Positions 8,501 through 32,000 of a stretch of 32,000 bases of DNA are shown here, in pieces. The stretch covers positions 79,584-111,583 of the forward strand of contig JACQVQ010000012.1 of the NCBI GenBank assembly GCA_016209685.1. Reading direction: 5' to 3'. The DNA is from Planctomycetota bacterium (GTDB lineage: Bacteria; Planctomycetota; Brocadiia; Brocadiales; Bathyanammoxibiaceae). Made by a program: the position numbers and the translations under genes. The notes beneath the pieces are model-generated. The model worked only from the letters and a program-made list of their open reading frames with translations, was not told where the DNA came from and searched no databases. How positions within the stretch are numbered: position 1 is the stretch's first letter; each line of letters begins with the position of its first letter.

Positions 8501-8591
8501 GCAGTAGGCAGTAGACAGAATACAGTAGACAGTATAAAATCATTCTGTATCCTGACTACTGACTACTGTTTACTGACTACTGTCTACATTT
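8501..8591. repeat. Phased heptamer twin-arm array A (13 x 7 nt)
   Basis: GCAGTAG GCAGTAG ACAGAAT ACAGTAG ACAGTAT | AAAATCA | TTCTGTA TCCTGAC TACTGAC TACTGTT TACTGAC TACTGTC TACATTT. It fills exactly the 91 nt from the narK TAG to the next ATG. Confidence 0.9.
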
Positions 8592-8861
8592 ATGGAAGGG
8601 GAAAAACCCACCTCAAGTCGGCACTTCAAACTGGGCATAGCCCTTATTATAGGTAGTACATTATGTGGTTATGCGGCCCTGGCTGTCGTAGGAGAGTCGG
8701 CAGTAACCCATAATCCCAGGCTGAGGACCATAAGCCTCGTAATCTGGTTCCTCACCTGGATACCCTTCCTCCTGGGATTTGCCCTGAGCGGTAAAGAGGG
8801 CTACAGATACGCCAAAAGGCTCATCAGCGAGAGACTATTTGGGAAAAACAGTAGGCAGTAA
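8592..8861 (+). CDS. Small two-TM membrane protein, unknown function
   Basis: 89-aa ORF with two hydrophobic segments. The last codons (..NSRQ*) are made of CAGTAGG/CAGTAAG repeat words. No SD. Confidence 0.45.
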   Translation: MEGEKPTSSRHFKLGIALIIGSTLCGYAALAVVGESAVTHNPRLRTISLVIWFLTWIPFLLGFALSGKEGYRYAKRLISERLFGKNSRQ

Positions 8862-8862
8862 G

Positions 8863-8889
8863 GTAGGGGCGGGGTTACCCCGCCCCTAC
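8863..8889. repeat. REP-like palindrome, GTAGGGGC subtype
   Basis: gtaggggcgggg-tta-ccccgcccctac: perfect 12-bp stem, 3-nt loop. Confidence 0.75.
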
Positions 8890-8941
8890 TACCTTTCGCA
8901 CTTGTCCCGACCCCAAAATATTGTTAGAATCTTTCTTTGCC

Positions 8942-10036
8942 ATGAGACACCTTCTTTTCCTTATATCCCTTTCTCTTTTGCCCCTATCAGTGGTAGGGGC
9001 AGACCAGGGAGAGACAGAGAAGTATTACAACCAGGCCCTGGAGTGTTATCAGAAGGGGTCTCTGGAAGAAGGGCTGCAGGCCTGTCAGAGGGCACTTGAA
9101 ATAGAGCCTACCTCGCCAAGGCCACACAACTATATGGGACTGTTTTATAAAAGGATGGGAAAGCTGGATGAGGCCATTAACCAGTTCAAAAAGGCCCTGG
9201 AGCTAGACGCCAACCTCCCTGAGGTCCATGCCAACCTGGGTAACGCATACACGGAGAAAGGCCTTATAGAGGAGTCTATCAAAGAACACCAGGTAGCCGT
9301 AGGACTGAGTCCCGATACGGCAGAACTCCATAATAACCTGGGCTACGCCCTGGAAAAGAGCGGTGAGATAGAGGAGGCAGTGGGCGAGTACCTTCGAGCC
9401 AACAGGCTCAACCCAGACCTGGCCGAGCCCCACGGTAACCTGGGGAGACTGTACCTCAAGAAGAGGATATTTCACAGGGCCATGAGCGAACTGGAAAGGG
9501 CCGTTGAAATCAACCCCTCTCTGGTAGAGTCCCACTACCTCTTGATAGAGGTCTATGTAACAAAGAACGCCCTGGAGAAGGCCACAGGACAGTGTGGGAT
9601 ACTCCTGGAACTAAACCCCAGAGACGCCCGGGCACGTACCCAGTTAGGGATGATACTGGCCAAGAAGGGGCAGACTGAAGGGGCCATCAAAGAGGGGTTA
9701 AAGGCACTGGAAATAGACCCACAACTGGCCGAGGCCCACACCCTCCTGGGAGACCTCTACTCCGCTCAGGGAGATACCGGGGAGGCCCTCAAGAGTTACC
9801 AGTCAGCAATAAAGGCCGACCCGAACTGTGCCGGTGCCCATCTAGGCCTTGCACTCCTCTATAACAAGGCCGGTATGCTTGAAGAGGCCATGGCCTCCTT
9901 TAAAGAGGCCGTCCGTCTTGACCCCGCTAACCCTGAGGCGAGGAAGGGCCTGGGACTGGTCTACGAACTCCTTGGAAAGGGACGGGAGGCAGACGAGGAA
10001 TTTAGGGTCTACGAGGCCCTCATTAGGAAGTCTTAG
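8942..10036 (+). CDS. Secreted TPR-repeat protein
   Basis: Start at the internal ATG 8942 gives the signal peptide MRHLLFLISLSLLPLSVVGA. About 9 tandem 34-aa TPR units follow (e.g. AHNNLGYALEKSGEIEEAVGEYLRANRLNPD). Confidence 0.8.
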   Translation: MRHLLFLISLSLLPLSVVGADQGETEKYYNQALECYQKGSLEEGLQACQRALEIEPTSPRPHNYMGLFYKRMGKLDEAINQFKKALELDANLPEVHANLGNAYTEKGLIEESIKEHQVAVGLSPDTAELHNNLGYALEKSGEIEEAVGEYLRANRLNPDLAEPHGNLGRLYLKKRIFHRAMSELERAVEINPSLVESHYLLIEVYVTKNALEKATGQCGILLELNPRDARARTQLGMILAKKGQTEGAIKEGLKALEIDPQLAEAHTLLGDLYSAQGDTGEALKSYQSAIKADPNCAGAHLGLALLYNKAGMLEEAMASFKEAVRLDPANPEARKGLGLVYELLGKGREADEEFRVYEALIRKS

Positions 10037-10055
10037 CCGGGGAACATTATTGTTT

Positions 10056-10277
10056 CTACAACACCTCCAAGAATTCCTCTACACTTATCCCTGCCTTTGT
10101 AATTAGGCTTCGCAAAGTGCCACGGGCGACCGTCGGATGGTTTGGCACTGAGAGTGCCGCTATATGCCCTGGCTTCGTCAGGATAATATGACTGCCTCGT
10201 TGACGTGTGACTTCCCAGCCAAGTTTTTCAAAGGCCTTCACTACCTCATAAGGTCTCAATATTGGGACACGTGGCAC
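10056..10277 (-). CDS. hicA: HicA-family mRNA interferase toxin
   Basis: 73 aa. MPRVPILRPYEVVKAFEKLGWEVTRQRGSHIILTKPGH is a typical HicA/YcfA pattern. The GTG start overlaps the hicB stop (TAGTG). Confidence 0.8.
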   Translation of the reverse strand: MPRVPILRPYEVVKAFEKLGWEVTRQRGSHIILTKPGHIAALSVPNHPTVARGTLRSLITKAGISVEEFLEVL

Positions 10278-10483
10278 TATACATTGACCTCTACCTGGCG
10301 AATCTCCACAGTCAAAGGCATCCCCTTTTCAGCTCGCACTTCCAAGCACTCCTTGATTGCCTCCCTAATATTACCCTCGGCCTCTTGTTCGGTCTTGCCC
10401 TGGCTCACACAGCCAGGGATAGATGGACATTCGGCTATGAACATTCCATCCTCATCTTGGAATATGGTTACAAGGAATTTCAT
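10277..10483 (-). CDS. hicB: HicB-family antitoxin (UPF0150 fold)
   Basis: MKFLVTIFQDEDGMFIAECPSIPGCVSQGKTEQEA. ATG at 10483 is preceded by GGGAGGA. The longer ORF to 10513 lacks an SD. Confidence 0.75.
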   Translation of the reverse strand: MKFLVTIFQDEDGMFIAECPSIPGCVSQGKTEQEAEGNIREAIKECLEVRAEKGMPLTVEIRQVEVNV

Positions 10484-10627: not shown

Positions 10628-10981
10628 CTATTTAGGCTCATCGCCCGTGGGGAAGAGCATCAGGTTCGTGTCCTTTACCAGATGGTACATCCTTTTGGCG
10701 TCTAGGAGGGCCTTTTCCTGGGGCACAAGCGGGGTAATCTCTATTTTGGTAAAGAACGGGAAGAGGGGGAGTTTTGTTACGATTGCCTCTATCTCCTCGC
10801 TGGAGTCTGCATCAAAGATGGCGGCGGCGCCGCGCCTACCGGCCAGTTTTCCACCGGCCAGCACCTTCCCTCTCTTCTTCATCCTCTCGTAATACTCCCA
10901 TTCCTTGATGAGCAGTTCAAAGAAACTCCTGGTGGGTATCTGAGGGAGTTTTTCTATCTCAACCTTTACCAGAAAGAGCAT
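10628..10981 (-). CDS. Muconolactone delta-isomerase-like (dimeric alpha+beta barrel) protein
   Basis: MLFLVKVEI...LAGRRGAAAIFDADSSEEIEAIVTKLPLFPFFTKIEITPL parallels CatC (MLFHVKM...LPLFPYMDIEV.PL). ATG at 10981 is preceded by GGAGG. The longer ORF reads through an array. Confidence 0.65.
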   Translation of the reverse strand: MLFLVKVEIEKLPQIPTRSFFELLIKEWEYYERMKKRGKVLAGGKLAGRRGAAAIFDADSSEEIEAIVTKLPLFPFFTKIEITPLVPQEKALLDAKRMYHLVKDTNLMLFPTGDEPK

Positions 10982-10990
10982 GGTTCCTCC

Positions 10991-11053
10991 GAATGAAGAA
11001 TGTGGAATTCGGAATGCGGAATCCCGCATTCGGCAATCTGCAATCCGCAATGA
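10991..11053. repeat. Phased heptamer twin-arm array C (9 x 7 nt)
   Basis: GAATGAA GAATGTG GAATTCG GAATGCG GAATCCC | GCATTCG GCAATCT GCAATCC GCAATGA. It abuts the fabG stop codon. Confidence 0.9.
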
Positions 11054-11797
11054 CTACATGGCCAGGCCGCCGTCTACGTTCAGGACGTGGCCTGTGGTAT
11101 AACTGGAGGCGTCTGAGACCAGAAACGCAACGGCCCTTGCCACCTCCTCTGCCTTACCAACGCGGCCCATGGGGATTAGCTTCAGGGCCTCTTCCATGTA
11201 CTCTTTCTTCAACCCCTGGGTCATCTCCGTGTCTATGAACCCTGGGGCTACGGCATTTACTGAGATATTGAACCTCGCCAACTCCTTGGCGAGGGACTTC
11301 GTGAACCCTATAAGCCCCGCCTTGGAGGAGGCATAATTGGTCTGCCCCATCATCCCTATGATTCCACTTACCGAGGTTATATTTACTATGGAACCACTTT
11401 TTTGCTTCATCATGGGGAACACCACGGCCCTGGTGCAATTGAAGGCCCCGTTCAGGTTGGTATCTATTACCTCCCTCCATTCCTGCTCGCTCATCCTCAT
11501 CATCAGATTATCTCTGGTGACCCCTGCGTTATTTACTAGGATATCTATCTTCCCAAAGTGTTTTATGGCCGTACTGACCATCTCTTTGGACTGATTGAAG
11601 TCTGCTACGTTACTCTGTAGAGGCAGGGCCTTTACGCCGAGGTTACTTAACTCTGTTTCCACCTCCTTGGCCTTCTCTACGTTCTTGGCGAAGCTGAAGG
11701 CCACGTCCACACCTCTCTGGGCCAGTTCCAACACGATAGCCCTTCCTATACCTCGCGTCCCCCCCGTTACGATTGCCACTTTACCTTTTAAGGACAT
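11054..11797 (-). CDS. fabG: 3-oxoacyl-ACP reductase (SDR)
   Basis: 247 aa. TGGTRGIGRAI cofactor motif, NNAG, and catalytic YASSK (YxxxK). FabG length and layout. Confidence 0.9.
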   Translation of the reverse strand: MSLKGKVAIVTGGTRGIGRAIVLELAQRGVDVAFSFAKNVEKAKEVETELSNLGVKALPLQSNVADFNQSKEMVSTAIKHFGKIDILVNNAGVTRDNLMMRMSEQEWREVIDTNLNGAFNCTRAVVFPMMKQKSGSIVNITSVSGIIGMMGQTNYASSKAGLIGFTKSLAKELARFNISVNAVAPGFIDTEMTQGLKKEYMEEALKLIPMGRVGKAEEVARAVAFLVSDASSYTTGHVLNVDGGLAM

Positions 11798-11817
11798 AAA
11801 TAGTCTCCATTCTTTTT

Positions 11818-11889
11818 AGACAATAGACCCTGGACTTTAGACTTTGGACTTCTTACCATTGTCTAAAGTCTAGTGTCAAATGTCCAAGT
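11818..11889. repeat. Phased heptamer twin-arm array B
   Basis: AGACAAT AGACCCT GGACTTT AGACTTT GGACTTC | TTACCAT | TGTCTAA AGTCTAG TGTCAAA TGTCCAA. Between the reductase stop and the fabG start. Confidence 0.9.
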
Positions 11890-13896
11890 TCATATCTCCA
11901 GTGAGACCTTAAAACCCTCGTGGACGGCCTCCATAGCCGTCCTGACCTTTACGCAATCCCCTATCGTATACACCTCCGGCACCAGGCTGTCCAGTTGCTG
12001 ATAAAGGGAATTATTGGGCATGTAACCCGTTGCCAGGATTACCGTCTCGGCCGGTAGGAAGGTCTCCTTACCTTCTTTCTCAAACAAGATTCCACTGGAA
12101 GGCCCTTCTCGTATCTCCTTCACCTTTACCCCTGTCAGAGTCTCTATGCCTGCCTCTTCCATCTCCTGGAGGATGACCCAGCGGGTGGAGAGGCCAAACC
12201 CGCTCCCCACCCTCTTCTTCATCTCCAGTACAGTAACCTTGCGATGACCACGGGTGGTCCTCAGGAGGGCATTAGGGAGGTCAATTACTTGGTTCTTCAG
12301 GAGGAAGAGGGCCACCTCCGGGCTCATACCCCCCAGTTTGGCCGCGTAAAGGGCCACTTCACACCCCACAGACCCTCCCCCTATAATTGCCACAGGATTC
12401 CCCACCGGGACCCTCTTCTCCAGGATATCCCTGGCCAGTACCACGTTCTTCCCCTTTACCCCTGGTATGGGAGGGATTACCGGTAAAGAACCGGTGGAGA
12501 GGATGACTACCTGGGGACGTTCCCTTTCTATAAGCCCTATGTCAACCTTTACCCCTAGATTTACCCTCACCCCTAATTTCGCCAGCTGTCTCTCAAAATA
12601 ATTTATGACGTGCTGAAACTCTCCCCGACCTGGGGGTTTATAGGCATAATGGAGTTGTCCTCCCAGATAGGAGTCGTTCTCGTAAAGGGTCACCTGGTGT
12701 CCCCTCAAGGCGGCCACCCTGGCGGCCTCCATACCACCCGGACCACCCCCGACAATCATTACCTTCTTCTTAACTGGTGACTCCTTGATGACGTATTCCC
12801 TTTCGTGACCTACCTGCGGGTTATAGAGGCAGGAGACAGGTCTCATGTTCAGGAGTTCATCAAAGCATCCCTGGTTGCATGCAATGCACGTCCTGATGTC
12901 CTCCCATCTGCCTTCTTGGTATTTTTTGGGTAGTTCCGGGTCTGCGATGAGGGGGCGGCCCACTGCTATGAGGTCTGCCTGACCATCCATGAGGAGTTCT
13001 TCAGCCACTGCCAGGTCGTTTATCCTCACCCCTGCTATGACAGGGAGGTTGACGTTTTCCTTAATAGACGAGGCCAGGAAGGTATAGGCCATCCGTGGGA
13101 TGGCCATGACCATTATAGGGGTCTTGCTCTCGTGCCACCCTGGGGAGACGTGAAAGGCATCTACCCCGACCCGGGCGAGTTCCACGGCAATCTCTATGTT
13201 CTCATTTATTCTGTTCCCCCCCTTCATGAGTTCATCCCCGGAGAGCCTGAAGATAATGGGAAAGTCCTTGCCCGCCAGTTCCTTCGTCGCCTGCACCACC
13301 TCTTTGGCGAATCTGAGCCGACCCTGGAGGTCTCCTCCATACTCGTCTTCTCTCTGGTTGGTTATGAGGGATAGGAATTGGTTTATCAGGTAACCCATCC
13401 CGCCGTGTATCTCTACGGCGTCAAAGCCTGCCTCCCTGGCCCTGAGGGCGGCCCTGGCGTAGCTGGTTATTATCTCCTTTATCTCAGGGATGGTGAGTGG
13501 TCTGGGGACGTCCCTGGCAAGGCGGGTGGGGACGCTGGAGGCAGAGACGGGTTGCCTCTTAGTGAAGAGGCTGGAGGCATAGCGGCCCCCATGAAGGAGT
13601 TGGGGGGCGGTCTTTGCCCCGAGCAGGTGCATTGCCTCGGTAAACCTTCTAAGGCCTGGGATATAGCGGTCATCGTCCAGGCCGAGGATACTCTTCCATG
13701 CCTTACCGCTCTCATGGGGGTAACAACCCCCTATTATTATGAGCGCCACGCCGCCCTTCGCCCTCTCGGCGTAAAAATCTATGAAGCGGTCGTTGACGAA
13801 GCCATCGGTAGAGAAGCCCACGTCCATGGCCGTCATGACCAGACGGTTCTTGAGTTCCAGGGGGCCAATGTTTGTACGGTCAAAAAGGCTTATCAT
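11890..13896 (-). CDS. FadH-like 2,4-dienoyl-CoA / enoate reductase (OYE FMN domain, 4Fe-4S, FAD/NAD(P) domain)
   Basis: N-terminal LFDRTNIGPLELKNRLVMTAM (OYE). CIACNQGC...C cluster motif. VMIVGGGPGGMEAA Rossmann motif. I prefer the ATG at 13896; the alternative GTG at 13917 lies inside a REP palindrome. Confidence 0.85.
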   Translation of the reverse strand: MISLFDRTNIGPLELKNRLVMTAMDVGFSTDGFVNDRFIDFYAERAKGGVALIIIGGCYPHESGKAWKSILGLDDDRYIPGLRRFTEAMHLLGAKTAPQLLHGGRYASSLFTKRQPVSASSVPTRLARDVPRPLTIPEIKEIITSYARAALRAREAGFDAVEIHGGMGYLINQFLSLITNQREDEYGGDLQGRLRFAKEVVQATKELAGKDFPIIFRLSGDELMKGGNRINENIEIAVELARVGVDAFHVSPGWHESKTPIMVMAIPRMAYTFLASSIKENVNLPVIAGVRINDLAVAEELLMDGQADLIAVGRPLIADPELPKKYQEGRWEDIRTCIACNQGCFDELLNMRPVSCLYNPQVGHEREYVIKESPVKKKVMIVGGGPGGMEAARVAALRGHQVTLYENDSYLGGQLHYAYKPPGRGEFQHVINYFERQLAKLGVRVNLGVKVDIGLIERERPQVVILSTGSLPVIPPIPGVKGKNVVLARDILEKRVPVGNPVAIIGGGSVGCEVALYAAKLGGMSPEVALFLLKNQVIDLPNALLRTTRGHRKVTVLEMKKRVGSGFGLSTRWVILQEMEEAGIETLTGVKVKEIREGPSSGILFEKEGKETFLPAETVILATGYMPNNSLYQQLDSLVPEVYTIGDCVKVRTAMEAVHEGFKVSLEI

Positions 13897-13907
13897 CTTT
13901 TTAAGCA

Positions 13908-13935
13908 GTAGGGGCACGGCATGCCGTGCCCCTAC
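13908..13935. repeat. REP-like perfect palindrome, GTAGGGGC subtype, inside the operon
   Basis: gtaggggcacggcatgccgtgcccctac, a 28-nt perfect palindrome between the KS-partner stop and the reductase start. Confidence 0.8.
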
Positions 13936-13947
13936 ATTCCTGGGTGT

Positions 13948-15219: not shown

Positions 15220-15221
15220 TG

Positions 15222-16457: not shown

Positions 16458-16468
16458 ACTAACCCCTT

Positions 16469-17944: not shown

Positions 17945-17956
17945 CTTCTCTCTCTT

Positions 17957-18343
17957 TTAAGGGATTTTTGGAACTCGGGATTCGGAATTGGGCATGAGGA
18001 GCACCTGGGCAATGGCATAGTCCTTTGTATGAGTTAGGGAGACTTCACAGTTACCAATCCCCTTCGCATCCGCACGCTCCTTTGCCCTTCCGTAGAGCTG
18101 CAGGTAAGGGCGGCCAGTGGGGTCGTTAAGCAGTTCTATATCCTTCCAACCTGCCCCCCCTCCTAAAGCCTTAATAACTGCCTCTTTTGTGGCAAATCTT
18201 GCGGCTAGGTGCTGGAACCTGTTCTTCCTGTTCCGACAATACTCTACTTCTTTAGGGGTATAAATACGGTTCAGAAAAGATTCATTGCGGGAGAAGAGGT
18301 CTTCTATCCTCTTCACCTCCACCAAATCTATTCCTATGTACAC
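17957..18343 (-). CDS. acpS: Holo-ACP synthase (4'-phosphopantetheinyl transferase)
   Basis: MYIGIDLVEVKRIE...FATKEAVIKALG...SLTHTKDYAIAQVLL. GTG start. The last 12 or so codons (MPNSESRVPKIP) are encoded by GGAAYYC heptamer words. Confidence 0.85.
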   Translation of the reverse strand: MYIGIDLVEVKRIEDLFSRNESFLNRIYTPKEVEYCRNRKNRFQHLAARFATKEAVIKALGGGAGWKDIELLNDPTGRPYLQLYGRAKERADAKGIGNCEVSLTHTKDYAIAQVLLMPNSESRVPKIP

Positions 18344-18429: not shown

Positions 18430-18457
18430 TTGACTATATCAGTAGATAAAATATAAT
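18430..18457 (+). promoter_or_regulatory. Sigma70-type promoter reading into array D and the MATE gene
   Basis: TTGACT (18430-18435), 16-nt spacer, TATAAT (18452-18457). Confidence 0.5.
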
Positions 18458-18466
18458 GCCCCAATT

Positions 18467-18613
18467 GAATGCGGAATTGGGAGTGCGGAATGCGGAACAT
18501 TCTAAATGTAGAGTGCGGATTTCGGAATGCGGAATTAAAACAACTCCGCACTCAGCACTCCGCATTCCGCACTCCGCATTCTGTACACTCAGCACTCCGC
18601 ATTCCGCATTGAC
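18467..18613. repeat. Phased heptamer twin-arm array D (21 x 7 nt)
   Basis: Ten G-rich words (GAATGCG GAATTGG GAGTGCG GAATGCG ...CGGAATG CGGAATT), centre AAAACAA, ten complementary words (CTCCGCA CTCAGCA CTCCGCA TTCCGCA ... CATTCCG CATTGAC). It ends 1 nt before the MATE ATG. Confidence 0.9.
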
Positions 18614-18614
18614 A

Positions 18615-19964: not shown

Positions 19965-19981
19965 GGGCGGGCCACCCCTAC
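19961..19981. repeat. REP-like palindrome containing the MATE TAG stop
   Basis: gtaggggcgggccacccctac. The TAG at 19962-19964 is the stop codon of the MATE gene. Confidence 0.65.
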
Positions 19982-19982
19982 T

Positions 19983-20024
19983 GATGCGGATTGTGGCATT
20001 CCGCAGTCTGCATTCCGAATTCAG
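19983..20024. repeat. Heptamer array E (6 x 7 nt)
   Basis: GATGCGG ATTGTGG CATTCCG CAGTCTG CATTCCG AATTCAG. Confidence 0.8.
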
Positions 20025-20053
20025 TTGACAGTCCCAAGCCTCTCTGTTAACAT
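20025..20053 (+). promoter_or_regulatory. Putative promoter for the tRNA cassette
   Basis: TTGACA (20025-20030), 17-nt spacer, TAACAT (20048-20053), about 10 nt before the tRNA-like sequence. Confidence 0.4.
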
Positions 20054-20229: not shown

Positions 20230-20230
20230 T

Positions 20231-20270
20231 GTTCCGAATGTGGAATTCGGAATGCGGAATTTGGAATGTT
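20231..20270. repeat. Heptamer array F (single arm), ending at the thrS ATG
   Basis: ..GAATGTG GAATTCG GAATGCG GAATTTG GAATGTT|ATG. 20236-20260 is identical to 10998-11022. Confidence 0.85.
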
Positions 20271-22952: not shown

Positions 22953-23050
<98 letters not shown>

Positions 23051-23428: not shown

Positions 23429-23540
23429 GGGAGTAGGGGGTAGGGAGTAGAAACACATTAAATTGCAAATTTTAAATTTAAAATTTCTAATTTACAATTT
23501 CTAATTCCTTTAACCCCTAGTCCCTAGCCTCTAACCCCTA
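23429..23540. repeat. Phased heptamer array H (16 x 7 nt)
   Basis: GGGAGTA GGGGGTA GGGAGTA GAAACAC ATTAAAT TGCAAAT TTTAAAT TTAAAAT TTCTAAT TTACAAT TTCTAAT TCCTTTA ACCCCTA GTCCCTA GCCTCTA ACCCCTA. It fills exactly the gap from the rplT TAA to the galU ATG. Confidence 0.9.
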
Positions 23541-26227: not shown

Positions 26228-26399
26228 GATAAATATGTTTAAGCGGTGCTGGAGCTTTAATAGAGCTAATAAAAGACTTTATGTAAATTCCGCATACCAC
26301 CTGTGGTCAAGTCCTTTTTTTTCTGTAAAAACTAAGAGGCGTAAGTACCTCCTTAATTAACATTAAGCCACAGTTCTCAAGGGGTGGAGTTCTTCCCTC

Positions 26400-26594
26400 A
26401 GGCGGTTAAGTTCTCTAAGGATACTGGGCGTCATCTTCACCCCATGCCACCTCACCATCTCAACCACAGCCTTACACAGTATTTCACCTGATAGCCTGGC
26501 GGAGTGCAGGGCTGACTTCAAAGACGAGCTTCTTTAGGTCTTCGCCCAGTACCACGCTGGCATCCAGGATTTCCAGCCCAGCCAAGAGTATTGC
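26400..26594 (-). pseudogene. Possible decayed gene remnant (frameshifted short reading frames)
   Basis: Minus strand reads ..LEILDASVVLGEDLKKLVFEVSPALRQAIR* then, in another frame, GEILCKAVVEMVRWHGVKMTPSILRELNRLREELHPLRTVA*. Both look protein-like. GC is higher than the surrounding islet. No ORF of 60 aa or more. Confidence 0.2.
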
Positions 26595-26942
26595 TTATTT
26601 TTCTATTTCTTTTAATATCCGTTCTACTGCCTCTTTTAGTGGCTGTAAATCCTGGTTTACTGTGCTCCAGACTCTTTCTAAATCAGTCCTGAAGTACTCG
26701 TGCATAAGTATGTCTCGCATACCGGCAATATCACGCCAGGGTATTTGTGGATATTTGGACTTTATGGAATCGGGTACCTTCTTTACCGCTTCGCCGATTT
26801 TTGCCAGAAGGTATACCGTAGCATAAGCCTTCTCTTTACTATTGACAAATGAGTTGAAGTCTTTCAAACCACTTATAAATCCTTCAATCTCTCCGACAGC
26901 GTCTAAAATATCTTCAAGATAGTCCCTGATTTCTCTTTTCAT
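26595..26942 (-). CDS. hepT: HepT-type HEPN toxin (DUF86)
   Basis: MKREIRDYLEDILDA...WRDIAGMRDILMHEYFRTD (R-x4-H). The ATG at 26942 overlaps the mntA stop in an ATGA junction. Confidence 0.85.
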   Translation of the reverse strand: MKREIRDYLEDILDAVGEIEGFISGLKDFNSFVNSKEKAYATVYLLAKIGEAVKKVPDSIKSKYPQIPWRDIAGMRDILMHEYFRTDLERVWSTVNQDLQPLKEAVERILKEIEK

Positions 26943-27238
26943 AAATAGGCGACCTCTTGCAAAATTCTCCTGCCTATGTAAGGCTTCAGGCATTTTTTTT
27001 CTACTAAATCTACCTTTACACCCAGCAGGTCGCTTAAAAGATTCTGTAAGTGGATGAATTCAATCAGGCTTAATTTTGCATCTTCTTCAAACTCCACTAA
27101 AACGTCCAAATCGCTATTTTTCTCCTGCTCATCCCTTACGTAAGAACCAAAGATGCCTATCTCTTTCACCTTGAATCTTTTTCTTAGTTCCTCCTTATGT
27201 TGTTTCAGTAAGGTCTTTATTTCTTTAAGGGTTTTCAT
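26939..27238 (-). CDS. mntA: MntA-type minimal nucleotidyltransferase antitoxin
   Basis: GIFGSYVRDEQEKNSDLDVLVEF (GS...DxD NTase motif). ATG at 27238 is preceded by AGGGGA. The ORF track extends to a TTG at 27268. Confidence 0.85.
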   Translation of the reverse strand: MKTLKEIKTLLKQHKEELRKRFKVKEIGIFGSYVRDEQEKNSDLDVLVEFEEDAKLSLIEFIHLQNLLSDLLGVKVDLVEKKCLKPYIGRRILQEVAYL

Positions 27239-27368
27239 ATCTATATCCCCTGCATCCGAAGAGTTCAAAGCCCTGAAAACAGTCTTTATCCTTAGGACAT
27301 TAAGTCGAGGGGCATTTTATCACAAGGACGGCCCTTTTCAAAGAATTAAGGCTACCCCCAAAAGCTGT

Positions 27369-27425: not shown

Positions 27426-28557
27426 ATGCTGAAAGACTTTAATCTCTTCCAAACACGCCTCGTAAGCCTGAGGGACTCTCTTTGACCTGGGGGCCAAAGA
27501 AAAAGAGCTAGCCCTGCTTGAGGAAAAGCTAGCCTCCGGGAACCTGTGGAAGGACAAAGACAAGTCTCAGGAAACCCTGAAGAGACTCAAGGCACTCAAA
27601 GAGATAACGATTCCCTTTAAAGAATTGGAAAAGTCCTGGGAGGAAGTGGTGCTTCTTGACCAGCTTGCAGAAGAAGACTCAAGTTTTACAGAAGAACTAG
27701 AACAAAACCTCCGTACCTTCCAGGGAAAGCTGGACAAGTTTGAACTCAAGACCCTCCTCAACCAACCCCATGACCACTGCAACGCCTACCTCAGCATCCA
27801 TGCCGGGGCCGGCGGGACGGAGTCCTGCGACTGGGTTGCCATGCTCCTGAGGATGTACCTACGCTGGATGGAAAAAAACGGTTATACCCAGGATACGGTG
27901 GACCTCCAGCCCGGTGAGGAGGCAGGGATAAAGAGGGTGGTCTTACACGTAAAAGGAGAAAGGGCCTATGGCTACCTCTGCGGAGAGGCAGGGGTGCACA
28001 GGCTGGTAAGGATTTCCCCGTTTGACGCCAACCAGAGGAGACACACCTCTTTTGCCGCCGTAGACGTCCTCCCTGAGATTGAGGAGGAGGGCGAAGTGGA
28101 AATCCGAGAGGAAGACCTGAAGACAGAGACCTTCCGGGCCGGCGGGGCAGGAGGACAACACGTCAACAAGACGTCTTCTGCCGTCAGAATAATCCATATC
28201 CCCACAGGAATCATTATACAGTGCCAGAACGAGCGCTCCCAGCATCAGAACCGCAGGACGGCCATGAACATGCTCAAGGCAAGGTTATACCAGATAAAGG
28301 AGGCCGAAAGGATGAAGCAACTCTCCCAGCTCTACGATGAAAAGGGGGAGATTGCCTGGGGCTATCAAATCCGCTCCTACGTACTCCACCCCTATAACCT
28401 GGTAAAAGACCTCCGCACGGGAAGAGAGACCAGCAATGCCCGGGCGGTGCTGGATGGCGACATAGATGCCTTCCTGGATGCCTATCTCAGATACAGACTG
28501 GCCAATCGTGAGGCCTCCACCTCAGGTGGAAACACGCCACAGACCAAGGCCACTTAA
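27426..28557 (+). CDS. prfB: Peptide chain release factor 2, with programmed +1 frameshift
   Basis: Frame 0: ATG 27426, MLKDFNLFQTRLVSLRDSL, then in-frame TGA at 27483 in the context CTT TGA C. The +1 frame from GAC 27484 is in phase with ORF 27625-28557 (141 nt = 47 codons). SPF and GGQ motifs are present. Confidence 0.92.
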
Positions 28558-28691: not shown

Positions 28692-29948
28692 ATGGACCCC
28701 CTGAAACAAGTTGACCCTGAAGTATGGCAGGCCATTAAAGGAGAGATTGAGAGACAAAAGACCCACCTGGAGCTTATCGCCGCAGAAAACTACTGTAGCC
28801 CGGCAGTGCTCCAGGCCCAGGGCTCCGTCCTTACCAATAAATACGCCGAGGGCTATCCAGGCAAGCGATACTACGGAGGTTGTGAACACGTTGACGTAGT
28901 GGAGAGGCTTGCCATTGACAGGGCTAAGGAACTCTTCGGGGCCGAACACGCCAACGTCCAGCCCCACGCCGGCTCCCAGGCCAACATGGCCGTCTATTTC
29001 ACCGCCATAGCCCCGGAGTGCAAAGTCCTGGGTATGGACATCACCCACGGTGGACACCTGACCCACGGGTTCAAGAAGAACTTCTCAGGTCAACTCTATG
29101 AGGCAAGGACCTATGGGGTGGATAAAGAGACCAAGCTCCTGGACTATGCGGCCATCCGTAAACAGGCCCAGGAGTTCCAGCCCGACCTCCTCATTGCAGG
29201 GGCCAGTGCCTACTCCAGGGCCATAGATTTCAGCAAGTTCAGGGAGATCGCCGACGAGGTAGGGGCCATCCTTATGGTAGACATGGCCCACATAGCAGGG
29301 CTCATTGCTGGCAAGGTACATCCCGACCCCGTCCCCTACGCCGACTTTGTTACCTCCACCACCCACAAGACCCTCGGAGGGCCAAGGGGAGGACTCATCC
29401 TGTGCAAGGCCAAATATGCCAAAAAGATAGACCAGGTGGTCTTCCCGGGGATGCAGGGAGGGCCGATGATGCACATCATTGCCGCCAAGGCTGTAGCCTT
29501 TAAAGAGGCCATGACCGAGGCCTTTGCAGAGAGACAGAGGCAGACCGTCGCCAACTCCAGGGCCCTGGCCCAGGCACTCCAGGAGAGGGGTTACTCCATC
29601 CTCACCGGAGGTACCGATAATCACCTATTCCTGGTGGACCTCACAAATAAGGGCCTCACAGGAAAGGAGGCCGTAAGCTACCTGGGAGAGGCCGCCGTAA
29701 CCGTAAATAAGAACCTTATACCCTTTGATACCCGCAGTCCCTTTGAAACCAGTGGAATAAGACTAGGCACGGCCGCCAGTACCACTAGGGGGATGAAAGA
29801 GACAGAGATGGCCCAGATTGCACAGTTCATAGACCAGATACTTTCTGCCCCAAAGGATGAAGAGATAAAAAAGAGGGTGAAAAAGGAGGTCCACGAACTC
29901 TGCGAGGCCTTCCCTATCTATGAACAAGAGGCCCTGGCAACCCTTTGA
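28692..29948 (+). CDS. glyA: Serine hydroxymethyltransferase
   Basis: 418 aa. [13 protein letters not shown], and the PLP-lysine motif [14 protein letters not shown]. Confidence 0.95.
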
Positions 29949-30025
29949 ACTAGGGGGTAGGGAGTAGGGGATAGGGGGTAGTAAAAAGATTGCTACTCCC
30001 CACTCCCTACCCCCTAACCCCTAAC
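29949..30025. repeat. Phased heptamer twin-arm array I (11 x 7 nt)
   Basis: ACTAGGG GGTAGGG AGTAGGG GATAGGG GGTAGTA | AAAAGAT | TGCTACT CCCCACT CCCTACC CCCTAAC CCCTAAC. It fills exactly the gap from the glyA TGA to the gpsA ATG. The arms pair at 25 of 33 positions. Confidence 0.9.
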
Positions 30026-31048
30026 ATGAAGCCTATTAAAAAGATAGCTGTCCTGGGTAACGGTGGTTGGGGTACCGCCCTGGCCATCCTCCTCTATAAA
30101 AAGGGACTGGACGTCCTCCTCTGGGGGAATTCTAAGGAATACATGGAATTCCTTGAGAAGAAGAGGGAGAACGTAAAATACCTCCCTGGGGTAAGCCTCC
30201 CTAAAGGGCTGTCCCTTACCTCCGACCTAACAGTCGCCTCTAAGGAGAGGGAACTCTTCGTAGTAGCCATTCCTACCCCTTATCTGCGTTCAGTCATGGA
30301 GAGGTTCAGGCCCCACTATCCCCCCAAGGCCCCCCTCTTGAGCGTAGCCAAAGGGATAGAGAACGAGACCCTCCTCATGGCCAGCCAGGTCGTATCAGAC
30401 GTACTAGGGGATTCCGCCTCAGGCAGACTGGCCCTCCTCCTGGGACCAAGCCATGCCGAAGAAGTAGCCAGGGACCTGCCCACCACGGTAGTGGCCTCCT
30501 CCAGGAGACAGGCCCTGGCTAAAGAGGTCCAGCATATCTTCACCACCGAACGTTTCAGGGTCTACACTAACCCGGACACGGTGGGTGTGGAGGTGGGGGC
30601 GGCAGTAAAGAACGTCATTGCCATCGCCGCCGGGATATGTGACGGCATGGGGTTCGGGGACAATACCAAGGCCGCACTCATTGCCAGGGGACTGGTTGAG
30701 ATTGCCAGGCTTGGTGTAAAGATGGGGGCCGAACGGGCCACCTTCTCTGGCCTTACTGGACTGGGAGACCTTATAACCACCTGCACAAGTAAGTACGGCA
30801 GAAACCGCTCCGTGGGGGAACAGCTGGGAAAGGGCCGAAGGCTAAAGAATATACTGGAGGGGATGGAACAGGTGGCCGAAGGCATTTATACCACCCGCTC
30901 CGTGAAATTATTGGCCGAGAGACACAAGGTAGAGATGCCCATCTCTGAGGAGATATACCAAATCCTTTATGAGGATAAAGACCCCCGCCAGGCCGTCAGT
31001 GACCTCATGATGCGCAGCCCCAGGGCAGAGATGGAAGAGTTGGAGTAG
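30026..31048 (+). CDS. gpsA: NAD(P)H-dependent glycerol-3-phosphate dehydrogenase
   Basis: MKPIKKIAVLGNGGWGTALA Rossmann start at the internal ATG 30026. The GpsA layout runs throughout. The ORF-track start at 29990 translates array I. Confidence 0.92.
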   Translation: MKPIKKIAVLGNGGWGTALAILLYKKGLDVLLWGNSKEYMEFLEKKRENVKYLPGVSLPKGLSLTSDLTVASKERELFVVAIPTPYLRSVMERFRPHYPPKAPLLSVAKGIENETLLMASQVVSDVLGDSASGRLALLLGPSHAEEVARDLPTTVVASSRRQALAKEVQHIFTTERFRVYTNPDTVGVEVGAAVKNVIAIAAGICDGMGFGDNTKAALIARGLVEIARLGVKMGAERATFSGLTGLGDLITTCTSKYGRNRSVGEQLGKGRRLKNILEGMEQVAEGIYTTRSVKLLAERHKVEMPISEEIYQILYEDKDPRQAVSDLMMRSPRAEMEELE

Positions 31049-31082
31049 GGGCATCCGCCTGAGGCGGACAACGTGCCCCTAC
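31045..31082. terminator. REP-like palindrome acting as a probable bidirectional terminator; contains both convergent stop codons
   Basis: gtaggggca-tccgcc-tga-ggcgga-caac-g-tgcccctac. The gpsA TAG (31046-31048) and nadC TAG (complement of 31079-31081) are the GTAG/CTAC ends of the 9-bp outer stem. Confidence 0.6.
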
Positions 31083-31942
31083 ATTTTCAGGGATATATCC
31101 AGTGCCTTTGCAGAGTGGGTGAGGGCGCCCACAGAAATCCTGTCCACCCCAGTCCTGGCAATGGCCTCTACGTTCTCCAGGGTAACCCCTCCGGATACCT
31201 CCACCATCGGGGGATGGAGGGGGTGGGTCTGGCGGATGCTTTTTGCGGCCTTTGCTATCTCTTCCACAGTCATATTGTCCAGGAGTATGATGTCTGGTTT
31301 TGCGGCAATGGCCTCCTCCAGTTCCTCCGGGGTCTTCACCTCTACCTCTATCAACATCCACTGGGGGGCCTTCTCCCTGGCCAGTCGTACGCCTTTAGCC
31401 AGTGCCTTTCCAGCCTCCAGGGCCATAAGGTGATTATCCTTGATGAGTACCTGGTCATAAAGCCCCATCCGGTGGTTCAGCCCCCCGCCCACCCTTACGG
31501 CGTATTTTTCCAGACTCCTCCACCCCGGGACCGTCTTGCGGGTGTCGTAGATTTTGGCATGATAATCCTTAATCTTCTCTACAAACAGGGCGGTGAGGGT
31601 GGCTATCCCTGAGAGCCTCTGGATAAAGTTGAGGGCCACACGTTCTCCAGCCAGGATGCCCCTGGCAGGGCCAGAGACCTCCGCCAGGACTCTACCTGGC
31701 AACACCCTAGCGCCCTCTTCCACGTTAGGGCTGAAAGAGACCTTCTTGTTGATTTGCTGATAGACCCTGCTGGCCACGGGAAGTCCAGCCACAACCCCAG
31801 TCTCTTTGGCCATCACCTCTCCCCTGGCGGTCTGCCACTCCGGGACGAGGACATCGGTGGTAACATCACCACCGCCGATGTCCTCCCTTATGGCCATCTC
31901 TATGAGCTGGTCTATCTCTTTCAGGTCAAGTGGTTCCAACAT
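31079..31942 (-). CDS. nadC: Nicotinate-nucleotide pyrophosphorylase (quinolinate phosphoribosyltransferase)
   Basis: 287 aa. ..DIGGGDVTT.. N-terminus, ..TRKT.PG.R.LEKYAV..GGG.NHR.GL.D..LIKDNH.. core, typical of NadC. Confidence 0.92.
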   Translation of the reverse strand: MLEPLDLKEIDQLIEMAIREDIGGGDVTTDVLVPEWQTARGEVMAKETGVVAGLPVASRVYQQINKKVSFSPNVEEGARVLPGRVLAEVSGPARGILAGERVALNFIQRLSGIATLTALFVEKIKDYHAKIYDTRKTVPGWRSLEKYAVRVGGGLNHRMGLYDQVLIKDNHLMALEAGKALAKGVRLAREKAPQWMLIEVEVKTPEELEEAIAAKPDIILLDNMTVEEIAKAAKSIRQTHPLHPPMVEVSGGVTLENVEAIARTGVDRISVGALTHSAKALDISLKM

Positions 31943-31966
31943 GCAATCGCCATCCTTACAAAAGAA

Positions 31967-32000
31967 GGTAACAGATTTCTACCTGTTACCTGTTACCTGT
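31967..32000. repeat. Heptamer array J (truncated by the window edge)
   Basis: ggtaacag-atttcta-CCTGTTA CCTGTTA CCTGT..., upstream of nadC. Confidence 0.7.

What the first reader, a model, noticed from the sequence alone, without database searches (positions are those of the whole stretch)
8501..32000. Intergenic spacers built from phased heptanucleotide words arranged as two complementary arms
Seen: eleven loci in 32 kb are tandem arrays with strict 7-nt phase: 8501-8591, 10991-11053, 11818-11889, 17970-17990, 18467-18613, 19983-20024, 20231-20270, 22953-23050, 23429-23540, 29949-30025 and 31967-32000+. The 5' arm is a degenerate run of one word and the 3' arm is a run of its complement. The arms are often separated by an A-rich central heptamer (AAAATCA, AAAACAA, AAAAGAT). 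The word families are CAGTAG/CTACTG, GGAATGC/GCATTCC, RGACTTT/AAAGTCY, GGGGTAG/CTACCCC and CTGTTAC. Array D is symmetric, with 10 words, a centre, then 10 words. Because both arms are tandem, they can pair in several registers; array I pairs at 25 of 33 positions in the zero register. The arrays lie inside operons (rpmI-rplT, rplT-galU, glyA-gpsA, reductase-fabG) and in 5' leaders. Established, from memory: heptanucleotide STRR repeats are known in heterocystous cyanobacteria, but I recall them as simple tandem arrays. I do not recognise this twin-arm, multi-family organisation as a described element class. Inference: they could be RNA-level punctuation or stability hairpins, slippage-prone length-variable structures, or DNA cruciform or protein-binding sites.
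Basis: partly seen in the sequence, partly recalled or inferred. Interest (0 to 1): 0.8.

Follow-up and report, generated by a model that had tools for sequence, protein, structure and literature searches.

The report
Heptamer-repeat hairpins filling intergenic spacers
In this planctomycete (Brocadiales-like, not cyanobacterial) genome piece, many gaps between neighbouring genes are filled by 7-base repeats arranged as two complementary arms that can fold into long hairpins; similar repeats are already described in cyanobacteria and Xanthomonas, so this is a dense new example of a known but functionally unexplained kind of repeat.

Summary
Nine of the eleven loci are period-7 arrays. No other period and no shuffle gives any. 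Seven or eight are complementary twin arms predicted to fold far better than shuffles. Locus 17970-17990 fails, and 20231-20270 has one arm.

The source is a Brocadiales-like planctomycete, not a cyanobacterium. Array density is about ten times that of other bacteria sampled.

Genomes about 94% identical show how the arrays change. Shared arrays differ only by 7- or 21-nt indels. Whole spacers are swapped for another word family or a REP-like palindrome, with the stop and start codons kept. Substitutions are rarer than at synonymous sites. Strain-level copies are identical.

Pairing favours neither strand, and unit order is not mirrored. So complementarity comes from the word family, and RNA-level selection is not shown.

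Most likely these are slippage-built heptamer repeats acting as interchangeable intercistronic hairpin modules, like REP elements. Function is inferred.

The architecture is already described: Xanthomonas convergent GGGAATC pairs, cyanobacterial hupS-hupL STRR hairpins, and the Nostoc trnL P6b stem.

New points are the phylum, the nesting, the exact spacer filling, and a G-rich-arm-first polarity (21 of 22 arrays, against 59:60 in controls).

The parts
8496..8591 (.). Twin-arm heptamer array. The words are GCAGTAG/ACAGTAG x5, centre AAAATCA, then TACTGAC-type x7. It fills the spacer from the MFS stop codon (TAG at 8498-8500, in phase with the units) to the ATG of ORF 8592.
   Evidence: RNA fold -38.6 kcal/mol, z = -5.5. 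Gene context.
10991..11053 (.). Short twin-arm array, GAATGYG x5 then GCAWTCB x4. It lies between the fabG stop (11054) and the SD and ATG of a MIase-like gene, in a minus-strand operon.
   Evidence: Weak fold, z = -2.1. MIase domain. SD GGAGG plus ATG.
11818..11889 (.). Twin-arm array, RGACTTT-type x5, centre TTACCAT, then WGTCTAR-type x4. It lies between the OYE-like reductase stop (11890) and the SD of fabG on the minus strand.
   Evidence: Fold -31.6 kcal/mol, z = -6.2. Unit order beats permutations at p about 0.05.
18467..18613 (+). The largest twin-arm array: 10 GAATGCG-type words, AAAACAA, then 10 CTCCGCA-type words. It occupies the whole predicted 5' leader of the MatE gene. It runs from just after a TTGACT-16-TATAAT promoter-like site (18430-18457) to 1 nt before the ATG at 18615.
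   Evidence: Fold -68.3 kcal/mol, z = -8.0, MFE frequency 0.014, meaning many registers. Promoter. Absent in L002 and L090, which have a short REP-like hairpin there.
19983..20024 (.). Small twin-arm GGAATGC-family array. It follows the MatE stop and a REP-like palindrome (19961-19981) and directly abuts the -35 of the tRNA-Val promoter-like site (20025-20053).
   Evidence: Fold z = -3.7. One-unit (7-nt) indel against L002 and L088. Promoter.
20231..20270 (+). Single-arm array, GGAATKY x5. It fills the gap from the 3' end of tRNA-Val (20229) to the thrS ATG (20271). In sister genomes a 100-nt twin-arm array of another family (GCYAGTA / CTAGCTA) replaces it.
   Evidence: Alleles.
22953..23050 (+). 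Twin-arm array, CAGTAG-type x5, a loop, then CTGTCTA x7. It lies between rpmI and the SD (AAGGAGG) of rplT. The 3' arm is 21 nt (3 units) longer than in L002.
   Evidence: Fold -44.3 kcal/mol, z = -6.0. Indel.
23429..23540 (+). Nested twin-arm array. The outer arms are GGGAGTA x3 / CCCCTA-type x4. The inner part is AT-rich AAATTTN heptamers that are themselves palindromic. It fills the spacer from the rplT stop to the galU ATG (23541).
   Evidence: Fold -39.1 kcal/mol, z = -5.1. L001 has only the outer family.
29949..30025 (+). Twin-arm array, TAGGGGG-type x5, AAAAGAT, then CCCCTA-type x5. It fills the spacer from the glyA stop (29946-29948) to the gpsA ATG (30026). It is the best-conserved array.
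   Evidence: Fold -48.1 kcal/mol, z = -5.0. 0 of 77 differences against L003 and 1 of 77 against L088, with diverged flanks.
31966..32000 (-). Small twin-arm element, GGTAACAG, ATTTCT, then ACCTGTT x3, which runs past the window end. It lies between uvrB and nadC on the minus strand. The repeat units encode the last residues and the stop codon of uvrB. This is the only array that also looks terminator-like.
   Evidence: 7-nt indel against L003.
17970..17990 (.). It has three degenerate units inside the ACPS coding sequence.
   Evidence: Not found by TRF or the lag scan. The coding context is conserved in L002 and L090.
13908..13935 (.). REP-like palindrome GTAGGGGC..GCCCCTAC in the KS>OYE spacer. 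It is the functional alternative to a heptamer array, because L002 carries a TAGCYAG twin-arm array at exactly this junction. Further copies are at 8863-8889, 19961-19981 and 31045-31082.
   Evidence: At the gpsA/nadC spacer the exchange goes the other way: REP-like in the window and L003, heptamer array in L004.

Best explanation
These are heptanucleotide simple-sequence repeats of the STRR kind, in a Brocadiales-like planctomycete. They have grown into pairs of complementary arms. The G- or purine-rich arm comes first, then a short A-rich centre, then the C- or pyrimidine-rich arm.

Shown:
- They change by gain and loss of whole 7-nt units, as replication slippage would produce.
- Between sister genomes a whole spacer is exchanged for another word family or for a REP-like palindrome. 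The neighbouring stop codon and the start codon or SD are kept.

Inferred:
- The arrays sit inside operons and leaders, so they are transcribed.
- The RNA folds into a 20-50 bp imperfect, register-degenerate hairpin. It takes up everything between one gene's stop codon and the next gene's start.
- I commit to the view that they work as sequence-independent intercistronic and UTR hairpin modules, like REP/BIME or Correia elements and as proposed for cyanobacterial hupS-hupL STRR hairpins.
- In that role they protect or punctuate the upstream mRNA 3' end. They also keep the stop codon and the next start codon physically close despite a 40-150 nt insertion.

Identity as slippage-built heptamer repeats is near certain. 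The RNA-hairpin function is the likeliest of several options, not demonstrated.
For: - Periodicity is exclusive to lag 7 and absent from shuffles.
- The arms are complementary. Folds reach z = -5 to -8.
- All indels in shared arrays are 7, 7 and 21 nt.
- Eight of the nine accepted arrays lie between co-directional genes, a tRNA gene counting as one. The ninth occupies a predicted 5' leader.
- Five arrays end 0-1 nt before an ATG. They begin at or in phase with the upstream stop codon.
- The same junction holds a heptamer array in one genome and a REP-like palindrome in another. This happens at KS>OYE and gpsA/nadC. So a hairpin, not a word, is what is exchanged.
- Substitutions in shared arrays total about 10 of 270 nt (counted from the alignments). 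About 28 would be expected from the 8-12% third-codon divergence.
- glyA>gpsA shows 0-1 differences in 77 nt, although the flanking codons differ right up to its borders.
- The arrays are not intrinsic terminators, with one exception.
- Literature precedents propose the same role (PMC2670836). In Xanthomonas most such repeats are transcribed (PMC4692102).
Against: - Pairing has no sense-strand signature. The sense strand is more stable in 8 arrays and the antisense in 8. G-U pairs number 37 sense and 48 antisense.
- Unit order is not mirrored in 8 of 10 arrays. All registers pair about equally well. So fine-tuned selection on one RNA structure is not evident.
- A relative at 83% identity (L091) has short, hairpin-free spacers at the same junctions. 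L005 and L006 have no heptamer arrays. The arrays are therefore dispensable.
- One L002 array lies between two divergent promoter-like sites and may not be transcribed.
- There are no expression data. Promoters, operons and folds are all predictions.
Confidence: 0.5

Rival explanations
1. Neutral or selfish by-product. A lineage-specific quirk of replication or repair makes 7-nt slippage frequent. Complementary arms arise at the DNA level by fold-back or template switching. The arrays expand until they hit selected borders (stop codon, SD, ATG, promoter). They persist only because a self-folding insert is harmless. They have no function of their own.
For: - No strand asymmetry and no mirrored unit order.
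- Presence, absence and family differ among genomes 94% identical. All four allele combinations of two spacers occur.
- Arrays are absent in L091, L005 and L006.
- Heptamer arrays are the commonest non-triplet period in 1.29 Mb of other bacteria. This fits the polymerase-slippage idea that PMC4692102 cites from a 2007 survey of bacterial simple-sequence repeats.
- Some arrays spill into the ends of coding sequences.
Against: - Shared arrays carry about one third of the substitutions expected from synonymous sites. glyA>gpsA is nearly invariant, with diverged flanks.
- The arrays are stable at strain level.
- Replaced spacers nearly always receive another hairpin-forming repeat rather than nothing.
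Confidence: 0.3
2. Translation-initiation elements. The pyrimidine-rich 3' arm that abuts SD-less start codons, often ..CTAAC-ATG, is a binding platform for ribosomal protein S1 or another RNA-binding protein. Alternatively, the hairpin couples termination at the upstream stop codon to re-initiation at the adjacent ATG. This is as suggested for TAACTGA repeats in Beggiatoaceae.
For: - Arrays end 0-1 nt before the ATG of ORF 8592, MatE, thrS, galU and gpsA, none of which has an SD. Genes with an SD (rplT, fabG, MIase-like) keep it between array and ATG.
- The same holds in relatives: L002 thrS and OYE, L004 gpsA.
- In Beggiatoaceae the largest class of TAACTGA repeats ends 1 nt before the start codon, without an SD (PMC4679880).
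Against: - Arrays also sit at 3' ends, between convergent genes (L004), and in front of an SD.
- Five unrelated word families argue against one sequence-specific binder.
- thrS in L091 starts after an 18-nt repeat-free spacer.
- The thrS array follows a tRNA gene and the MatE array occupies a predicted 5' leader, so neither has an upstream ORF to couple to.
Confidence: 0.12
3. DNA-level elements. The arrays would be cruciforms or G-quadruplexes. Or they would be arrays of contiguous 7-bp protein-binding sites, like the heptad arrays bound by the omega repressor of plasmid pSM19035 (from memory). They would act on supercoiling, replication or transcription.
For: - Strand symmetry of pairing.
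- AT-rich centres.
- G-rich families (TAGGGGG, GGGAGTA) resemble the G4-forming GGGAATC and GGGGATT repeats studied in PMC4692102.
- One array in L002 and one in the window abut promoter -35 sites.
Against: - At least five word families in 32 kb, degenerate units and variable copy number argue against specific protein sites.
- Most families cannot form a G4.
- The placement is overwhelmingly inside transcription units rather than in promoter regions.
Confidence: 0.06
4. Miniature mobile elements (MITE or REP-like) that insert and excise at intergenic sites.
For: - The same word family recurs at several loci in one genome. GGAATGC is at five listed window loci (one not accepted as an array), and TAGCYAG at two L002 loci.
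- Spacers differ between sister genomes by whole-element replacement with sharp borders.
Against: - I noticed no conserved termini or target-site duplications at the filled-versus-empty junctions I read.
- No two copies I read had the same unit number or order.
- Length changes come in 7-nt steps.
- None of the window ORFs scanned against Pfam matched a transposase or RAYT-type family.
Confidence: 0.03

Closest known systems
Xanthomonas GGGAATC heptamer repeats in convergent (inverted) pairs (Rehm et al. 2015, PMC4692102)
   Same: They are intergenic heptamer arrays, many of them paired as G-rich arm then C-rich arm and able to form stem-loops. Length varies between related species while the repeat type is preserved. 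Most are transcribed. Function is unknown.
   Different: Xanthomonas has one dominant word per genome, in a gammaproteobacterium. The repeats lie near the upstream ORF end rather than filling the spacer from stop to start. They were studied as G-quadruplexes. Here there are at least five families, most unable to form a G4, with nesting and a much higher local density.
Cyanobacterial STRR sequences, including the hairpin-forming 7-bp repeats between hupS and hupL (PMC2670836). The founding STRR description in Calothrix is recalled from memory.
   Same: The unit is 7 bp, repeated in tandem, and dispersed in intergenic and intercistronic positions. Hairpin potential is noted. Transcript stability or translational coupling has been proposed.
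   Different: The phylum differs (Nostocales against Brocadiales-like Planctomycetota) and so do the words. No STRR1-3 tandem copies occur here. In Nostoc PCC 7120 only a few arrays are paired (PMC4692102), whereas here most are.
Nostoc tRNA-Leu(UAA) intron P6b stem-loop built from heptamer classes I and II (Kaasalainen et al. 2015, PMC4476775)
   Same: A stem is made of a heptamer word and its complement. Indels of 7 nt occur on one or both sides. One word class is repeatedly replaced by another at the same site. Side hairpins are inserted near the loop.
   Different: It is a single locus inside a structured catalytic RNA, where the RNA-level role is clear. Here there are many loci in mRNA spacers.
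TAACTGA direct repeats of Beggiatoaceae, cyanobacteria and Bacteroidetes (MacGregor 2015, PMC4679880)
   Same: They are heptamer arrays that end about 1 nt before SD-less start codons, including in ribosomal-protein operons. The words contain stop codons.
   Different: They are direct repeats only (one inverted case in 170 sets), with a single word and no predicted structure.
REP/BIME elements of enterobacteria and Correia/NEMIS elements of Neisseria (from memory)
   Same: They are abundant imperfect palindromes in transcribed intergenic spacers. They act as mRNA 3'-end stabilisers or RNase III processing sites. This is the role I infer here. The window has its own REP-like palindromes that swap places with heptamer arrays.
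   Different: Those are fixed-sequence elements with defined ends, some mobilised by dedicated transposases. They have no internal 7-nt periodicity and no unit-number variation.

Membership tests
Heptanucleotide simple-sequence repeats / STRR-type arrays (generic class) | Tandem head-to-tail copies of a 7-nt unit, more than chance would give | tested here: met
   TRF period 7 at nine loci. Ten lag-7 segments, against 0 at other lags and 0 in shuffles.
Heptanucleotide simple-sequence repeats / STRR-type arrays (generic class) | Dispersed at many intergenic loci of one genome | tested here: met
   About 2.8 arrays per 10 kb in the window and 2 more in the next 10 kb. About 20% of intergenic bases. 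Only about 42 kb of the genome was seen.
Heptanucleotide simple-sequence repeats / STRR-type arrays (generic class) | Length variation by whole units between related genomes | tested here: met
   Indels of 7, 7 and 21 nt. No variation among assemblies 99-100% identical.
Cyanobacterial STRR1-3 sequence families | Unit sequences CCCCAGT, TTGGTCA, CAACAGT (from memory) in a heterocystous cyanobacterium | tested here: not met
   No tandem copy of any of the three words. The nearest genomes are Brocadiales / Brocadiaceae MAGs.
Xanthomonas-type convergent heptamer pairs | Two arrays of the same word on opposite strands, close together, with the G-rich array first | tested here: met
   26 of 32 lag-7 segments in the window and close relatives have a reverse-complement array within 130 nt. 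21 of 22 hairpins have G>C in the 5' arm.
Xanthomonas-type convergent heptamer pairs | The word GGGAATC or a GGGANTN consensus | tested here: not met
   No tandem GGGAATC. The words here are CAGTAG, GGAATGC, RGACTTT, GGGGTAG and GTAACAG.
REP/BIME-like intercistronic hairpin elements (function class) | Imperfect palindrome in a transcribed spacer between co-directional genes | tested here: met
   Position. Palindromy. Transcription itself is inferred, not measured.
REP/BIME-like intercistronic hairpin elements (function class) | Stabilises or processes the mRNA in vivo | not testable with these tools
   This needs RNA-seq, Term-seq or half-life measurements.
REP/BIME-like intercistronic hairpin elements (function class) | Conserved consensus sequence with defined ends | tested here: not met
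   Units, copy numbers and families differ from locus to locus.
Intrinsic (Rho-independent) terminators | GC-rich hairpin followed by a U-run | tested here: not met
   Only 31991-31966 (minus strand) qualifies. The other arrays have no T-run.
MITEs | Terminal inverted repeats with target-site duplication and near-identical copies | tested here: inconclusive
   Filled and empty junctions were only read by eye, and no duplication was noticed. The copies I read all differed. No dedicated search was run, and only about 42 kb of the genome was examined.
Curated RNA families (Rfam 15) | A match at the gathering score | tested here: not met
   Only tRNA-Val matched. Sub-threshold miRNA-precursor look-alikes reflect hairpin shape only.

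The most novel reading that the evidence does not exclude
Twin-arm heptamer arrays obey a general building rule that no one has explained. The G- or purine-rich arm is always 5' of its complement on either strand (21 of 22 here, across Planctomycetota and Selenomonadaceae, and implied for Xanthomonas). New word families appear nested at the centre. The two arms share a word family but not a mirrored unit order.

This pattern is what one would expect if each arm were synthesised independently. That could happen by reiterative G-rich 3' extension at the two ends of a break at a hairpin tip, giving a structure like a head-to-head telomere fusion. Alternatively, selection may forbid exposing a C-rich arm first in nascent RNA, for example to avoid Rho loading.

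Either way, the arrays would report a widespread, undescribed repair or transcription constraint that builds palindromic repeats in several bacterial phyla.
Probability: 0.15. Interest if true: 0.7.

Novelty: new member of a known kind. Interest (0 to 1): 0.45.

Why it matters
Surveys have long noted that heptamer repeats are over-represented in bacterial genomes. Their origin and role are still unknown. PMC4692102 states that no detailed literature on them existed in 2015.

This lineage packs them densely, at about one per 3 kb and a fifth of intergenic DNA. Several word families occur side by side, and sister genomes about 94% identical are available. Gain, loss, unit slippage and wholesale replacement can therefore be read directly.

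That makes it a good natural system for three questions:
- Do such arrays act as mRNA hairpins?
- Why is the period 7?
- Why does the G-rich arm always come first?

Practically, gene callers mis-place starts and stops at these arrays. Examples are the ORFs that run through 18467-18613, and the OYE start called at 13917 rather than 13896.

Tried and rejected
- **Cyanobacterial origin:** rejected. The L20-anchored scan returned Brocadiales / Planctomycetota genomes.
- **Assembly artefact:** rejected. The arrays are identical in independent NCBI and Logan assemblies.
- **Strain-level hypervariability (contingency loci):** rejected. There is no length change at 99-100% identity.
- **Sense-strand G-U enrichment as a test of RNA-level selection:** no signal, 8 against 8. 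The sample is small, and a mutational bias could confound it either way.
- **Mirror-order test by permuting units within arms:** significant for only 2 of 10 arrays. The arms are not decayed perfect palindromes.
- **Intrinsic terminator role:** rejected for all arrays but one.
- **Rfam:** no family beyond the tRNA.
- **Literature on heptamer repeats in Planctomycetes or anammox bacteria:** nothing found in the held library.
- **Growth from the loop or from the outer ends:** the few indels I could place gave no consistent answer.
- **Vioque 1997 (STRR in RNase P RNA):** the paper is not held. I cite it only by its title, as listed.

Full report

Yes. Tandem Repeats Finder reports period-7 arrays at nine of the eleven loci. 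In a sliding 28-nt window needing at least 21 matches, lag 7 gives ten segments. Lags 5, 6 and 8-12 give none, and 100 shuffles give none.

The inverted-repeat search finds arms that are 71-91% complementary at 8511/8564, 11816/11856, 18475/18552, 22955/22998 and 29951/29993. Folded as RNA, six arrays reach z = -5.0 to -8.0 against dinucleotide shuffles, and none of 200 shuffles folds as well. 19975-20030 gives z = -3.7, 10988-11056 gives z = -2.1 and 20225-20275 gives z = -1.6.

Complementarity of 70-80% recurs in registers exactly 7 nt apart. For glyA>gpsA the zero register has 26 Watson-Crick and 3 G-U pairs of 35. So the several-registers remark is correct.

Corrections:
- 17970-17990 is three degenerate units inside the ACPS coding sequence, and no method detects it.
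- 20231-20270 has one arm only.
- The phase inside 18467-18613 is not strict (6% indels).
- 31980-32000 encodes the last residues and the stop codon of uvrB.
- 10991-11053 lies between fabG and a small MIase-like gene.

The arrays make up 782 nt. That is 2.4% of the window and about a fifth of its intergenic DNA. They are identical in three NCBI assemblies and several Logan assemblies, so they are not assembly artefacts.

**2. Whose genome is it?**

It is not a cyanobacterium. A scan of 185,579 species genomes with the L20 protein returns Candidatus Brocadiales / Brocadiaceae and Planctomycetes MAGs as nearest relatives (L001-L003 at 93-97% protein identity). Their DNA is 92-96% identical to the window. 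The JGI metagenome scan gave further members of this clade (L086-L090). L004 and L091 are about 80-83% identical, L005 about 77% and L006 about 71%.

Rfam finds only tRNA-Val at gathering score. Relaxed thresholds add only eukaryotic miRNA-precursor look-alikes, which merely means "long hairpin".

**3. Gene context**

The genes were assigned with Pfam and with the gene calls of the matching NCBI contig. Of the nine accepted arrays, eight lie between co-directional genes, a tRNA gene counting as one:
- MFS>ORF 8592
- fabG>MIase-like
- OYE-like reductase>fabG
- MatE>tRNA-Val
- tRNA-Val>thrS
- rpmI>rplT
- rplT>galU
- glyA>gpsA

uvrB>nadC adds a small tenth element.

The ninth array occupies the whole predicted leader of MatE. 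It starts just after a TTGACT-16-TATAAT site (18430-18457) and ends 1 nt before the ATG.

The arrays typically run from the upstream stop codon to the next start. The MFS stop TAG is in phase with the GCAGTAG units. Five arrays end 0-1 nt before an SD-less ATG (ORF 8592, MatE, thrS, galU, gpsA). rplT, fabG and the MIase-like gene keep a GGAG-type SD between array and ATG.

Only the uvrB>nadC element looks like an intrinsic terminator.

**4. How the arrays evolve**

*Strain level (99-100% identity).* The arrays have identical lengths. The only differences are two point changes in the AT-rich core of 23429-23540 in L083.

*About 94% identity.* Three behaviours appear.
- (a) Shared arrays differ by whole units only: 21 nt in the 3' arm of rpmI>rplT (window against L002), 7 nt in MatE>tRNA (against L002 and L088) and 7 nt in uvrB>nadC (against L003).
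- (b) Whole spacers are replaced with sharp borders.
  - tRNA-Val>thrS is a 40-nt GGAATKY single arm in the window, L087 and L088. It is a 100-nt GCYAGTA / CTAGCTA twin arm in L002, L086 and L090.
  - rpmI>rplT is CAGTAG-type in the window and L002. It is REP-like plus ATTCTGT-type in L001, L086, L087, L088 and L090.
  - All four combinations of these two alleles occur.
  - The MatE leader array is absent from L002 and L090. L002 instead has a GGGNCTA twin arm, with nested palindromes, upstream of the promoter.
  - At KS>OYE the window has a REP-like palindrome (GTAGGGGC..GCCCCTAC) and L002 a TAGCYAG twin arm. At gpsA/nadC the window and L003 have the REP-like palindrome and L004 a heptamer twin arm.
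- (c) Substitutions are scarce. Using one relative per array, I count about 10 differences in 270 aligned array bases in the alignments. About 28 would be expected from the 8-12% divergence at third codon positions. glyA>gpsA has 0 of 77 (L003) and 1 of 77 (L088), although the flanking codons differ right up to its borders.

*More distant relatives.* L091, L005 and L006 have no heptamer arrays. L091 has short plain spacers at the same junctions.

**5. Tests of how the arrays might work**

- *Strand asymmetry.* If pairing were maintained in the mRNA, G-U pairs should favour the sense strand. They do not. The sense strand is more stable in 8 arrays and the antisense in 8. G-U pairs number 37 against 48.
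- *Mirrored order.* Shuffling the order of units within arms lowers stability significantly in only 2 of 10 arrays. This fits the equal complementarity in all registers. The arms are therefore complementary because they share a word family. They are not decayed perfect palindromes.
- *Polarity.* A [G-rich arm][C-rich arm] element stays so on the opposite strand, so its polarity is an intrinsic property. Of 22 twin-arm heptamer hairpins with unequal G and C, 21 have G>C and purine excess in the 5' arm. They come from the window, its relatives, and unrelated Planctomycetota and Selenomonadaceae loci. Non-heptamer hairpins in the other bacteria split 59:60. The Xanthomonas pairs are reported only as "convergent", which is the same polarity (PMC4692102).
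- *Nesting.* 23429-23540 has a GGGAGTA / CCCCTA shell around an AAATTTN core. An array 10 kb left of the window (L169 21457-21604) has a GGCTAGG shell around a CAGAATT core. In both cases each level has the purine-rich arm first.
- *Breadth.* Density is 2.8 per 10 kb in the window, 4.2 in the ~94% relatives and 1.5 in L004. In 1.29 Mb from 148 other loci it is 0.28. There, 7 is still the commonest period that is not a multiple of three.

**6. Best explanation**

The arrays are heptanucleotide simple-sequence repeats that grow and shrink by slippage in 7-nt steps; that they change only in whole units is shown. They are arranged as complementary arms, so the spacer is self-folding.

Four facts point to a sequence-independent hairpin role in the transcript:
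- The arrays sit in operon spacers and leaders.
- They trade places with REP-like palindromes.
- They keep exact borders at stop codon, SD and ATG.
- They accumulate few substitutions.

The role would be protection or punctuation of the upstream cistron's 3' end. It would also keep the stop codon and the next start codon close together. This step is inferred.

The same idea has been proposed for 7-bp STRR hairpins between hupS and hupL in cyanobacteria (PMC2670836).

The main rival is that they are tolerated by-products with no role. It is supported by the lack of strand asymmetry, the unmirrored units, the patchy presence among close relatives and their absence in L091. I put about 0.5 on the hairpin-module reading and 0.3 on the by-product reading. 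The rest goes to start-codon-proximal translation elements (compare TAACTGA repeats, PMC4679880), DNA-level structures or protein sites, and mobile elements.

**7. Comparison with what is known**

It is described in pieces:
- Xanthomonas carries 70-75 convergent pairs among about 185 GGGAATC arrays. Length varies between species and most arrays are transcribed (PMC4692102).
- The P6b stem of the Nostoc trnL intron is built from one of two heptamer classes. It shows 7-nt indels on one or both sides, class replacement at the same site, and side hairpins inserted near the loop (PMC4476775).
- Cyanobacterial intercistronic STRR hairpins are noted (PMC2670836).
- A 2007 survey cited in PMC4692102 reported general over-representation of heptameric repeats in bacterial genomes and proposed a polymerase-slippage explanation.

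The words here are not those of any of these systems. I found nothing on Planctomycetes. I therefore file this as a new member of a known kind.

What may be new:
- the phylum;
- the density;
- several families side by side;
- nesting;
- stop-to-start filling;
- interchange with REP-like palindromes;
- the quantified polarity rule.

**8. Limits**

Only about 42 kb of this genome and a few tens of kb of sister genomes were seen. Promoters, operons and folds are predictions. Several relatives are not independent: L003 equals L089, and L086 is nearly L090. The substitution comparison rests on five arrays. No expression data were available.

Noticed in passing
window 8863-8889, 13908-13935, 19961-19981, 31045-31082; CCGCC-N3-5-GGCGG cores at 3051, 4248, 4759, 10581, 20092, 24486, 28633, 31055: There is a second class of intergenic repeat. 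REP-like palindromes GTAGGGGC..GCCCCTAC often enclose a small CCGCCTNAGGCGG hairpin. The same element occurs in L006, only 71% identical. The stem word GTAGGGG equals the unit of the GGGGTAG heptamer family, so heptamer arms may be seeded from REP-like stems.
   Followed up: partly
window 20066-20152: A degenerate tandem duplicate of tRNA-Val lies just upstream of the real gene (20153-20229). Its anticodon arm is replaced by the CCGCCTCAGGCGG hairpin and its T-arm is decayed. L002 has a single copy.
   Followed up: partly
window 24650-27268: An island with a HEPN (LA2681-like) gene and a HepT / nucleotidyltransferase toxin-antitoxin pair lies between galU and prfB. It is missing in L088, L003, L004 and L091, where galU is followed directly by prfB.
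   Followed up: partly
window 10628-18343 (minus strand): This is an operon-like run of MIase-like, fabG-type SDR, OYE-like / 2,4-dienoyl-type reductase, two ketoacyl synthases, a B12-binding radical SAM enzyme and a phosphopantetheinyl transferase. It recalls the lipid (ladderane-candidate) clusters discussed for anammox bacteria. That link is from memory and was not tested.
   Followed up: no
window 27426-28557: prfB carries the canonical +1 frameshift site, CTC TTT GAC at 27480 with an upstream GAGGG. The NCBI gene call is 1132 nt for 376 residues.
   Followed up: partly
window 4860-4904; L005 18479-18525: A twin-arm element with 10-11-nt units (AATCCCCCTT AGTCCCCCTTT / AAAGGGGGATTC AGGGGGATT) is 98% identical in L005, whose genome is only about 77% identical. 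Its C-rich arm comes first, the opposite polarity to the heptamer arrays.
   Followed up: no
L032 4309-4397, L019 1597-1652 (Selenomonadaceae); L139 2069-2193, L154 5889-5996, L159 (metagenome contigs whose L20 is 49-52% identical to the window's): Twin-arm heptamer arrays with other words (TGRGGAA / AATTCCT, AAGAATT / AATTCTT, GAGGGAT / TCCCTCA, GGATTAG / CCTAATC) occur in unrelated lineages. Single-arm GGGATTA and CCCCAAT arrays are common in Pirellulales-type contigs, some ending at an ATG (L027 11576-11676).
   Followed up: partly
window 13894-13917 and 18456-18614: Gene starts are mis-set by repeats. The OYE-like gene is called from GTG 13917, but conservation with L002 ends at ATG 13896. 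An ORF from 18456 reads straight through the stop-free GAATGCG array into MatE.
   Followed up: partly
window 10056-10483 (from L169 gene calls 1918-2345): A HicA/HicB toxin-antitoxin pair sits between the TPR gene and the MIase-like gene.
   Followed up: no
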